Source: a virus (taxonomy: Duplodnaviria > Heunggongvirae > Uroviricota > Caudoviricetes). Taken from it: a DNA stretch of 17,334 bases. Below, piece after piece: positions 1,497 through 1,942 of the stretch (its first letter is position 1; every line of letters starts with the position of its first letter). Under the pieces are notes generated by a model. That model was not told where the DNA came from. It was given only the letters and a program-made list of their open reading frames with translations, and searched no databases. The stretch lies in IMG/VR virus record IMGVR_UViG_2690316086_000006. One strand, written 5' to 3'. A program made the translations under genes and the position numbers.

Positions 1497-1610
1497 TCAA
1501 GCATTATGCAGGCTGTTTCTTTTTATCACCGGCCACAGCAATACCACAATGCCGCAGACCAGCACCCCATCCGCCAGCACCGACATGATTCTGCTGGTGA
1601 AATCCACCAT
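1497..1610 (-). CDS. Small hydrophobic peptide (37 aa, MVDFTSRIMSVLADGVLVCGIVVLLWPVIKRNSLHNA), predicted single transmembrane helix
   Basis: ATG at 1610 overlaps the TGA stop of the upstream TerB-like gene (ATGA coupling); hydrophobic core; too short for the ORF track. Confidence 0.35.
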   Translation of the reverse strand: MVDFTSRIMSVLADGVLVCGIVVLLWPVIKRNSLHNA

Positions 1611-1942
1611 CACCACCAGAAACAGCAGGAGTGCAGCCACAGCCAATCGTGTTTCACATCCTCAATCTCGCGTAACGCGGCACGACGACCAATTTTAAAA
1701 TTGGTATCCAGCTGACCGATAATAGTTGCGCTAATCGCATTAATTTCCGAGGTAAACGCAGACAACGCAGGCTGATTACGTAAGACCTGTTCGATCTTCG
1801 CTTTCTCGGATGCCTCGCATTCACCATCTGCATAGGCCACCAGGTATGCAGCGTTAATCACCGCCTGTGCCAGATCGCGTTTCTCAAACTTTTTAATTTC
1901 CGCTGCCGCTCTGCGGGTTTTCTTTTTGAAGATTCCAAACAT
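1610..1942 (-). CDS. TerB-like domain protein (110 aa)
   Basis: Internal ATG at 1942 preceded by AAAGGAAC Shine-Dalgarno; segment VINAAYLVAYADGECEASEKAKIEQVL resembles the TerB-family pattern (from memory); sits downstream of the tRNA cluster. Confidence 0.55.
   Translation of the reverse strand: MFGIFKKKTRRAAAEIKKFEKRDLAQAVINAAYLVAYADGECEASEKAKIEQVLRNQPALSAFTSEINAISATIIGQLDTNFKIGRRAALREIEDVKHDWLWLHSCCFWW

What the first reader, a model, noticed from the sequence alone, without database searches (positions are those of the whole stretch)
1497..1942. TerB-like protein coupled to a 37-aa membrane peptide in the stx-equivalent slot
The TerB-like gene stop overlaps the start of a hydrophobic peptide gene (ATGA), and the pair is bracketed by intrinsic terminators (2073-2098 and 1271-1296). 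TerB-domain proteins are linked to membrane-associated stress and phage-resistance systems. This two-gene cargo unit is a candidate exclusion or defence module.
Basis: inference. Interest (0 to 1): 0.5.

Follow-up and report, generated by a model that had tools for sequence, protein, structure and literature searches.

The report
Deletion-damaged tciA–tciB phage cargo genes
The "TerB-like protein plus 37-aa peptide" is a broken copy of a common, already-named phage gene pair (tciA/tciB), crippled by a 150-bp deletion across the junction of the two genes, so it is an ordinary decaying prophage remnant, not a new defence module.

Summary
The two ORFs lie at the stated coordinates on the minus strand, and both flanking terminators are real. 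Apart from one clean 150-bp gap at 1645|1646, the region is 100% identical to the tciA–tciB pair of E. coli O26:H11 11368 and hundreds of other genomes. The intact pair encodes a 143-aa TerB-family protein and a 55-aa, two-helix DUF3927 membrane protein joined by a GTGA overlap. The deletion removes the last 44 residues of TciA, including the second conserved ADGE helix repeat. It also removes the Shine-Dalgarno sequence, GTG start and first six codons of tciB. TciA then reads out of frame into tciB (tail WLWLHSCCFWW) and stops by chance next to internal Met19 of TciB, which creates the apparent coupling. The junction occurs in 1 of 5,426 complete E. coli genomes plus one further assembly. NCBI's PGAP annotation pipeline already marks the TerB gene as a pseudogene. 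The downstream terminator follows an STnc100-family sRNA, not the peptide gene. The intact pair is conserved in P1, N4-like, jumbo and Pseudomonas phages, has no tested function and matches no known defence model. Verdict: already known, low interest.

The parts
1610..1942 (-). tciA' : TerB-family pseudogene as it now reads (110 codons). Codons 1-99 (1942-1646) are native. Codons 100-110 (WLWLHSCCFWW) are tciB sequence read out of frame, ending at TGA 1612-1610.
   Evidence: phrog_632 E 5.6e-47 over positions 1-99 of 143. PGAP in strain ML775 annotates 'tellurite resistance TerB family protein, incomplete, missing C-terminus' at the equivalent of 1646-1942.
1645..1646 (.). Junction of a 150-bp deletion relative to the intact allele. 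It removes TciA residues 100-143 plus the stop, the tciB Shine-Dalgarno (GGAG), the GTG start and codons 1-6. There is no microhomology at the break.
   Evidence: Alignment A1. Exact boundary analysis. The junction-specific 44-nt query hits 1 of 5,426 genomes.
1497..1645 (-). tciB' : remnant of the DUF3927 membrane-protein gene (native residues 7/8-55). Possible new starts are TTG 1646 (a chimeric codon made by the junction), GTG 1640 (the PGAP choice, 47 aa) and ATG 1610 (native Met19, 37 aa).
   Evidence: Pfam PF13064 at 58.8-60.3 bits, profile starting at position 9 or 18 of 53. phrog_1470 positions 10-54 of 54. Alignment A3.
1320..1492 (-). STnc100-family (PasD-related) small RNA, starting 5 nt after the tciB stop codon.
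   Evidence: Rfam RF02076 at 104.7 bits against a gathering score of 47, full model. This segment is the part conserved in Stx phages that lack tciAB.
1277..1295 (-). Intrinsic-terminator hairpin (8 bp, 6 GC) followed by TTTTTTT. It lies downstream of the sRNA and upstream of the esterase gene (start about 1183).
   Evidence: Annotation mapping.
1943..2079 (-). tciA leader with Shine-Dalgarno AAGGA (about 1955-1951). It is strongly structured and no sigma-70-like promoter was detected in it.
   Evidence: MFE -75.9 kcal/mol, z -3.5. (interleaved inverted repeats). (no minus-strand promoter hit here).
2080..2099 (-). Intrinsic-terminator hairpin (8 bp, 6 GC) plus T-run between the tRNA cluster and tciA'.
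2112..2363 (-). Three phage tRNA genes (Ile/Met-CAT, Arg-TCG, Arg-TCT) immediately upstream, as in Stx phages.

Best explanation
Window 1497-1942 is a mutationally inactivated copy of the phage cargo gene pair tciA-tciB.

Shown:
- The intact pair encodes a 143-aa stand-alone TerB-domain protein and a 55-aa DUF3927 protein with two hydrophobic helices. The two genes are joined by a GTGA stop/start overlap.
- A lineage-private 150-bp deletion removed the second half of the TerB domain together with the ribosome-binding site, start codon and first six codons of tciB.
- Because 150 is a multiple of three while the two genes are in different frames, TciA now runs out of frame into tciB for 11 codons. 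It stops at a TGA that happens to abut internal Met19 of TciB, which gives the illusion of a designed TerB-plus-37-aa-peptide couple.

Inferred for this copy:
- TciA' cannot form the TerB helical bundle. TciB', if made at all from a weak new start, lacks part or all of its first transmembrane helix. The locus is therefore most likely non-functional.
- It is probably still transcribed passively as part of the Q-dependent late transcript that continues into the STnc100-type sRNA, the sialate esterase gene and the lysis genes.

Inferred for the intact module (low confidence, about 0.3): the DUF3927 hairpin tethers or partners the TerB protein, a type reported to shuttle between cytoplasm and membrane, at the inner membrane. 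This would resemble TerB-TerC in ter operons. The complex would act during lytic development on membrane or ion stress, or on host membrane surveillance, rather than as a lysogen-protecting exclusion system.
For: - The region 1250-2110 is 100% identical to O26:H11 11368 and at least 24 other listed genomes in two pieces spanning 1,011 bp instead of 861.
- Alignment shows a single clean 150-bp gap.
- The intact genes are annotated there as WP_000466957 (143 aa, TerB family) and WP_000216636 (55 aa, DUF3927) with a 4-nt overlap.
- Intact TciA scores 60.2 bits on Pfam TerB over profile positions 2-109 of 118. It aligns over residues 14-137 with the solved TerB structure 2JXU, E 4e-8. The window copy keeps 99 residues and loses TREAEDVLDVAVAIAEADGEIEPEERKVLEEIAGVLGLRLENHL. 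That stretch is conserved in the P1, N4-like, jumbo and Pseudomonas phage homologues.
- The deleted DNA contains GGAG-N8-GTG, the native tciB initiation region.
- The N-terminal residues of TciB are conserved across distant phages.
- The junction is found in 1 of 5,426 complete E. coli genomes (O103 ML775). There PGAP calls the TerB gene a pseudogene.
- The exact 110-aa product is on record on only one contig, strain SE14002.
- Intact tciA is under strong purifying selection (dN/dS 0.04 at dS 0.42), so the intact form is the selected state.
- For the intact module: the TerB-DUF3927 pairing recurs in lambdoid prophages, P1, P7, SJ46, Klebsiella lambdoids, N4-like Pollock and SP-076, and Pseudomonas ZY21. 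In jumbo Erwinia ChrisDB the partner is annotated TciB-like, but its Pfam DUF3927 score is sub-threshold (14 bits).
- Literature: TerB-TerC complex (PMC11003894); TerB proteins proposed to be amphitropic membrane sensors (bioRxiv 10.1101/2025.09.30.679545).
Against: - No expression or protein data exist for this allele.
- A 47/49-aa TciB' keeping 13-15 residues of helix 1 could still insert in the membrane.
- Termination-reinitiation at TGATG could yield some 37-aa peptide.
- The deletion is shared by at least three closely related genomes, so it is not strongly counter-selected. This is equally expected for a dispensable cargo gene.
- The mechanism proposed for the intact module is untested. 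No TerB-DUF3927 fusion proteins exist to support physical association; the only long hits are frameshift artefacts. Phages 434 and 2B8 carry DUF3927 without TerB.
Confidence: 0.9

Rival explanations
1. One reading: a functional, translationally coupled TerB-like protein plus 37-aa membrane peptide. The pair would form a self-contained, terminator-bracketed exclusion or defence module expressed in the lysogen.
For: - Both ORFs are open and the stop and start share a base.
- Terminators flank the region.
- TerB domains occur in validated defence systems: Shango, Bunzi and Dionysus.
- ter operons confer phage inhibition (PMC9603915).
Against: - The architecture is private to one lineage and derives from a 150-bp deletion of an otherwise identical, widespread allele.
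- The TerB domain is truncated: Pfam falls below threshold (24.3 vs 24.4) and only the first repeat remains.
- The peptide lacks the conserved N-terminus and most of helix 1.
- PADLOC gave no hits for the window's two ORFs.
- No promoter-like site was found upstream.
- An sRNA also lies inside the 'bracket'.
- The helicase, ATPase or pore-forming partners of known TerB defence systems are absent.
Confidence: 0.04
2. Partial function retained: the TerB gene is dead, but the DUF3927 remnant (37-49 aa) is still translated and keeps, or alters, the membrane activity of TciB on its own.
For: - PGAP still calls a 47-aa DUF3927 protein from GTG 1640.
- DUF3927 occurs without TerB in phages 434 and 2B8.
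- Helix 2 and its conserved D/R/D, P and K positions are intact.
- The TGATG overlap could allow reinitiation.
Against: - The native SD (GGAG) and GTG start are deleted.
- The remaining candidate starts have poor SD context: GAGGA lies 12 nt before TTG 1646 and 18 nt before GTG 1640, and GGTGG lies only 2 nt before ATG 1610 (read from the sequence).
- The conserved N-terminal K/R residues and part of helix 1 are lost.
Confidence: 0.1
3. The 150-bp gap is an assembly or sequencing artefact and the real locus is intact.
For: STEC genomes hold several near-identical copies of this region (median 4 matching places per genome), a setting in which assemblies can collapse.
Against: The same junction is present in the window and in two independently deposited complete assemblies, ML775 and SE14002. 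Both differ from the window by the same 5 SNPs. A clean 150-bp loss is not a typical read-error signature.
Confidence: 0.02

Closest known systems
tciA-tciB of E. coli lambdoid prophages and phage JLK-2012 (WP_000466957 / WP_000216636; phrog_632 / phrog_1470)
   Same: Same genes, same slot (Q - tRNAs - terminator - tciA - tciB - STnc100-type sRNA - sialate esterase - lysis genes). DNA is 100% identical to the O26:H11 allele outside the gap.
   Different: The window copy lacks 150 bp across the gene junction. TciA is truncated at residue 99 with a frameshifted tail, and tciB has lost its start.
[quoted passage not shown]
   Same: TciA is 42% identical over its full length. TciB is the best DUF3927 match (106 bits). 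The genes are tightly linked and flanked by tRNA genes.
   Different: P1 has a third small gene, tciC, and the operon lies downstream of the C1-controlled ban promoters. It is non-essential by CRISPRi (PMC10695390) and lost in about half of one P1-like subgroup (PMC9603915). No function has been demonstrated.
TerB of the terZABCDE tellurite-resistance / phage-inhibition operon (solved structure 2JXU)
   Same: Intact TciA aligns end to end with TerB (E 4e-8) and matches Pfam PF05099 at 60 bits. TerB works with a membrane partner, TerC (PMC11003894), which is analogous to a TerB-DUF3927 pairing.
   Different: No TerC, TerD, TerZ, TerA or TerE genes are nearby. The partner is a 55-aa two-helix protein. 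The window copy lacks the last two helices.
TerB-containing anti-phage systems (Shango SngA, Bunzi BnzA, Dionysus DinB)
   Same: They share the TerB-like domain and a proposed membrane-surveillance role.
   Different: Those systems need helicase/ATPase or pore-forming partners and are host-encoded. Here no such partners exist, PADLOC gives no significant hit, and the pair is carried by phages, including virulent ones.
stx1AB / stx2AB cargo of Stx-converting phages
   Same: Same insertion slot between Q (plus tRNA genes in this prophage) and the STnc100-like segment / esterase / lysis cassette, so the same expected Q-dependent late expression.
   Different: Unrelated proteins.

Membership tests
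TerB family (Pfam PF05099) / TciA (phrog_632) | Sequence homology to TciA/TerB-family proteins | tested here: met
   phrog_632 E 5.6e-47. Residues 1-99 are identical to WP_000466957.
TerB family (Pfam PF05099) / TciA (phrog_632) | Complete TerB domain (both ADG-x-E helix repeats, about 118 profile positions) scoring above the Pfam gathering threshold | tested here: not met
   Window ORF scores 24.3 bits against a 24.4 cut-off and matches residues 11-53 only. It covers phrog_632 positions 1-99 of 143. The intact relative scores 60.2 bits over profile positions 2-109 of 118. The 44 lost residues are conserved across phages.
DUF3927 (Pfam PF13064) / TciB (phrog_1470) | Profile match above the gathering threshold | tested here: met
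   58.8 bits (37 aa) and 60.3 bits (49 aa) against a cut-off of 25.
DUF3927 (Pfam PF13064) / TciB (phrog_1470) | Full-length protein of about 52-55 aa with two hydrophobic helices and its native start | tested here: not met
   The profile is matched only from position 9 or 18 of 53. SD, GTG and codons 1-6 are deleted. Hydropathy of the intact protein shows two peaks, and the first is cut.
tciA-tciB operon | Same-strand adjacency with the native stop/start junction (GTGA overlap or direct abutment) | tested here: not met
   The native junction lies inside the deleted 150 bp. The present TGATG overlap is to internal Met19 in a shifted frame.
ter operon (terZABCDE) | Co-located TerC membrane protein and TerD-family genes | tested here: not met
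   None are present in the 34-kb annotated neighbourhood.
Known anti-phage defence systems (PADLOC-DB v2; Shango/Bunzi/Dionysus type) | Match to a defence-system protein model and presence of the partner genes | tested here: not met
   The window proteins have no hit. The intact TciA has only a weak hit, E 0.0035 at 14.5 bits, to PDC-S48. There are no helicase, ATPase or pore-forming neighbours.
Known anti-phage defence systems (PADLOC-DB v2; Shango/Bunzi/Dionysus type) | Protection against phage infection when expressed | not testable with these tools
   This needs a plaque-assay panel.
STnc100 sRNA (Rfam RF02076) | Covariance-model score above the gathering threshold over the full model | tested here: met
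   104.7 bits against 47, model positions 1-206, window 1492-1320 minus strand.

The most novel reading that the evidence does not exclude
The most novel reading not excluded concerns the intact module rather than this copy. In this reading the TerB-DUF3927 pair is a conserved phage counter-measure or membrane-state modulator used during lytic growth. For example, it could be a TerB decoy or anchor that blunts host TerB-based membrane surveillance (ter operon, Shango, Bunzi, Dionysus) or tunes ion or membrane stress before lysis. The pair is kept under strong purifying selection and is shared by lambdoid, P1-like, N4-like, jumbo and Pseudomonas phages. The window allele would then be a natural knock-out for testing this idea. 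A still less likely variant is that the truncated TciA' with its hydrophobic tail, together with the short TciB', has gained a new activity.
Probability: 0.08. Interest if true: 0.5.

Novelty: already known. Interest (0 to 1): 0.12.

Why it matters
The finding matters little in itself. It shows that an apparently neat 'coupled TerB plus micro-peptide' unit is a pseudogenised copy of a gene pair named tciA/tciB since the P1 genome annotation, and that RefSeq already labels it TerB-family (pseudogene) plus DUF3927. The useful lessons are practical:
- Stop/start overlaps in prophage cargo regions should be checked against intact alleles before being read as design.
- The 37-aa form of DUF3927 is a recurrent start-codon miscall.
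- The 'bracketing' terminator belongs with an STnc100/PasD-type sRNA.

The one open biological question is what the intact, widely conserved TerB-DUF3927 pair does for phages. Nobody has tested this.

Tried and rejected
- **Natural TerB-DUF3927 fusion proteins as evidence of physical association.** A DUF3927 profile search of 1.84 billion representatives found 118 clusters, almost all 50-65 aa. The three long hits inspected are not TerB-DUF3927 fusions: two (P0173, P0214) are frameshift or read-through artefacts, and P0217 has an ABC-ATPase-like N-terminus. A word-index search with TciB returned only small E. coli proteins.
- **Defence-system models.** PADLOC gave nothing significant.
- **NCBIfam.** Only a weak sub-threshold similarity to the TerB-like region of DjlA.
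- **A repeat-mediated origin of the deletion.** There is no microhomology at the break and no flanking direct repeats longer than 5 nt.
- **The junction in IMG/VR viral contigs.** No match.
- **A known RNA family in the structured tciA leader.** Nothing turned up apart from weak terminator-like partial hits.
- **A strict tRNA association of the module.** tRNA genes lie nearby (within about 2 kb) in the lambdoid loci examined here, P1, ChrisDB, ZY21 and K481. They are absent from Pollock, SP-076, Zuri, PMBT3, AF and the Klebsiella lambdoid 5 LV-2017, so it is not a rule.
- **Literature on TciA/TciB function.** Only homology-based names and a CRISPRi non-essentiality call exist. The P1 genome paper itself was not held.
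- **Not attempted.** Structure prediction, because the Pfam match and the 2JXU sequence alignment already settle the fold of the intact protein. I also did not count intact paralogous copies in the source genome.

Full report
**What is at the coordinates.** On the minus strand an ORF runs from ATG 1942 to TGA 1612-1610 (110 aa). A second, hydrophobic ORF runs from ATG 1610 to the stop at 1499-1497 (37 aa; 47 aa from GTG 1640, 49 aa from TTG 1646). The stop and start share one base (TGATG), not four (ATGA). Terminator-like hairpins with T-runs lie on the same strand at 2099-2080 and 1295-1277. Three tRNA genes lie just upstream at 2363-2112. Further upstream lie an AraC-family gene, a DUF1133/Q-type antiterminator and RusA. 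Downstream are a sialate O-acetylesterase gene and the lysis cassette. In Shigella phage 75/02 Stx the stx1AB genes occupy the same position, between Q and the conserved segment before the esterase gene. The 'stx-equivalent slot' description is therefore correct.

**Family assignment.** The 110-aa ORF scores 24.3 bits on Pfam TerB, against a cut-off of 24.4, and only over residues 11-53. It matches the phage family phrog_632 ('tellurite resistance') at E 5.6e-47, but only over positions 1-99 of 143. The peptide is DUF3927 (PF13064, 58.8 bits), and it covers only profile positions 18-50 of 53, or 9-50 for the 49-aa form. Both genes therefore look truncated at their shared junction.

**The key result: a 150-bp deletion.**
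- Window 1250-2110 is 100% identical to E. coli O26:H11 11368, O103:H2 12009 and many other STEC genomes. The match comes in two pieces that span 1,011 bp in those genomes against 861 bp here.
- Alignment shows a single clean 150-bp gap between window positions 1645 and 1646. There is no microhomology at the break.
- In the intact allele RefSeq annotates a 143-aa 'tellurite resistance TerB family protein' (WP_000466957) and a 55-aa 'DUF3927 family protein' (WP_000216636) that overlap by 4 nt (GTGA).
- In phage JLK-2012 the same genes are named tciA and tciB. These names go back to phage P1.
- The deletion removes TciA residues 100-143 (TREAEDVLDVAVAIAEADGEIEPEERKVLEEIAGVLGLRLENHL), its stop codon, the tciB Shine-Dalgarno (GGAG, 8 nt before the start), the GTG start and the first six codons.
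- Because 150 is divisible by three and tciB is in another frame, TciA' reads on through tciB out of frame for 11 codons (WLWLHSCCFWW). It ends at a TGA that happens to abut the ATG of TciB Met19.

**How common the deletion is.** A 44-nt query centred on the junction matches 1 of 5,426 complete E. coli genomes, O103 strain ML775. There PGAP annotates the TerB gene as a pseudogene 'missing C-terminus' and calls a 47-aa DUF3927 protein. The exact 110-aa product is on record on one contig only, strain SE14002. The window differs from both assemblies by the same five SNPs. The deletion is therefore real and shared by a small lineage of at least three genomes. By contrast, 648 genomes hold a place covering at least 80% of the 861-nt region. 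The intact 143-aa protein is seen on about a thousand contigs. The exact 37-aa peptide sequence is a called gene on 889 contigs. This only shows that gene callers often start intact tciB at Met19.

**Why the intact form is the functional state.**
- Intact TciA matches Pfam TerB at 60.2 bits over profile positions 2-109 of 118.
- It aligns over residues 14-137 with the solved Klebsiella TerB structure 2JXU (E 4e-8).
- The protein has two similar helix units, each carrying an ADGE motif (AYADGECEASEKAKIEQV and AEADGEIEPEERKVLEEI). The deletion removes the second.
- The lost segment is conserved in the homologues from P1, N4-like Pollock, jumbo Erwinia phage ChrisDB and Pseudomonas phage AF.
- The lost N-terminus of TciB (M-x-x-K-x-R followed by helix 1) is conserved too.
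- Between the O26 and JLK-2012 alleles tciA has dN/dS 0.04 at dS 0.42.

**What the intact module is.** A 140-150-aa TerB-only protein occurs in 131 phage records from Escherichia, Salmonella, Klebsiella, Erwinia, Pantoea, Pseudomonas, Vibrio and Sinorhizobium phages. A DUF3927 gene follows it directly in several groups:
- lambdoid prophages, P1, P7 and SJ46;
- Klebsiella lambdoids, where tciB is unannotated and again has a GTGA overlap;
- N4-like Pollock and SP-076, and Pseudomonas ZY21.

In jumbo phage ChrisDB the partner is annotated TciB-like but scores below the Pfam threshold. N4-like Zuri has a 67-aa membrane protein in that place. Phages 434 and 2B8 have DUF3927 without TerB, and some TerB phages lack the partner. 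DUF3927 is a very small family: 118 clusters at 50% identity among 1.84 billion representatives, nearly all 50-65 aa. No genuine TerB fusions were found.

No function has been demonstrated. The P1 names are by homology. CRISPRi scores tciABC as non-essential (PMC10695390), and about half of one P1-like subgroup has lost the operon (PMC9603915). PADLOC has no model for either protein.

**Likely mechanism, marked as inference.** TerB of ter operons is reported to partner with the membrane protein TerC (PMC11003894). TerB domains in Shango, Bunzi and Dionysus are proposed to be amphitropic membrane sensors. By analogy, I think the two-helix DUF3927 protein most likely anchors or partners TciA at the inner membrane. 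The timing evidence points to lytic growth:
- In lambdoid phages the pair sits in the Q-dependent late operon behind a terminator, with no detectable promoter of its own.
- In P1 it lies downstream of the C1-repressed ban promoters.
- It is also carried by strictly virulent phages.

This favours a role during lytic development (membrane or ion stress, or interference with host membrane surveillance) over lysogen-protecting exclusion. I give this model about 0.3. For the copy in this window the best-supported statement is that it no longer works.

**The terminator 'bracket'.** The segment between the peptide stop (1497) and the downstream terminator (1295-1277) is not empty. Rfam finds a full-length STnc100-family sRNA at 1492-1320 (104.7 bits against a gathering score of 47). 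This is the segment conserved in Stx phages that lack tciAB. A 2026 preprint relates STnc100 to the PasD sRNAs found upstream of sialate esterase genes, and lists TerB among the genes typically near PasA/PasC (10.64898/2026.05.13.724894). The downstream terminator therefore more plausibly ends the sRNA or the read-through transcript than a two-gene unit.

**Verdict.** The thing itself is already known and already annotated as a pseudogene plus a short DUF3927 gene. Interest is low. The residual interest lies in the untested function of the intact TerB-DUF3927 pair.

Noticed in passing
window 1320-1492 (-): Full-length STnc100-family sRNA (RF02076, 104.7 bits) starts 5 nt after the tciB stop and lies upstream of the sialate esterase gene. 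It is of the PasD/STnc100 class described in a 2026 preprint. A CATAAT -10-like box lies inside the 3' end of tciB (about 1511-1506).
   Followed up: partly
window 16102-16153 (+), with dicB at 16328-16516: DicF antisense RNA (RF00039, 75 bits) upstream of dicB and downstream of ydfC. This is a Qin/Kim-like division-inhibition cassette at the early-left end of this prophage.
   Followed up: no
window 2392-3105 (-), promoter-like site 3168-3141: AraC-family HTH regulator gene (237 aa) inserted between the Q region and the tRNA genes. It has its own good sigma-70-like promoter (10 of 12 matches) just after a terminator at 3253-3236. This is the class of prophage regulators (PatE/Psr/AppY-like) known to rewire host acid-resistance and virulence genes. 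Which one it is was not tested.
   Followed up: no
window 1943-2079 (-): The tciA leader is unusually structured (MFE -75.9 kcal/mol, z -3.5) with interleaved inverted repeats (1961-73/2017-29 and 1990-97/2038-45). Its last 60 nt are 100% identical between the O26 and JLK-2012 alleles, although the coding region has dS 0.42. It may be a regulatory or processing element. There is no Rfam match.
   Followed up: partly
L004 (P1), L005 (ChrisDB), L001/L002 (lambdoids), L016 (ZY21): The TerB-DUF3927 pair sits next to phage tRNA genes in several unrelated phage types. P1 and JLK-2012 even share an Asn-Thr tRNA pair upstream. The pair is not next to tRNA genes in N4-like phages, PMBT3 or AF. Unexplained; it may simply mark a cargo hotspot.
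   Followed up: partly
L009 2322-3554 (phage 434): Phages 434 and 2B8 carry DUF3927 without TerB in the same post-Q slot. It is preceded by a 247-aa predicted membrane protein with no Pfam match and followed by a 62-aa membrane protein.
   Followed up: no
window 6046-6608 (+) and 14170-14834 (-): Two type II toxin-antitoxin pairs inside the prophage: ParD/ParE between the nin-like region and DUF968, and HigB/HigA next to the immunity region.
   Followed up: no
window 1136, 1160, 1166, 1169 (and 11227): The window differs from both ML775 and SE14002 by the same five SNPs. Four of them cluster within 34 bp at the 5' end of the esterase gene, which suggests a short gene-conversion tract from a paralogous prophage.
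   Followed up: no
window 2288-2363 (-): ARAGORN calls this tRNA-Met (CAT), while RefSeq annotates it as tRNA-Ile. It is the ileZ-type tRNA (lysidine-modified CAT) typical of Stx-phage tRNA clusters.
   Followed up: no
protein collection: The exact 37-aa DUF3927 sequence is a called gene on 889 contigs, and a 39-aa internal-start call exists in Pseudomonas phage ZY21. The family is systematically annotated too short because its GTG start overlaps the tciA stop.
   Followed up: partly
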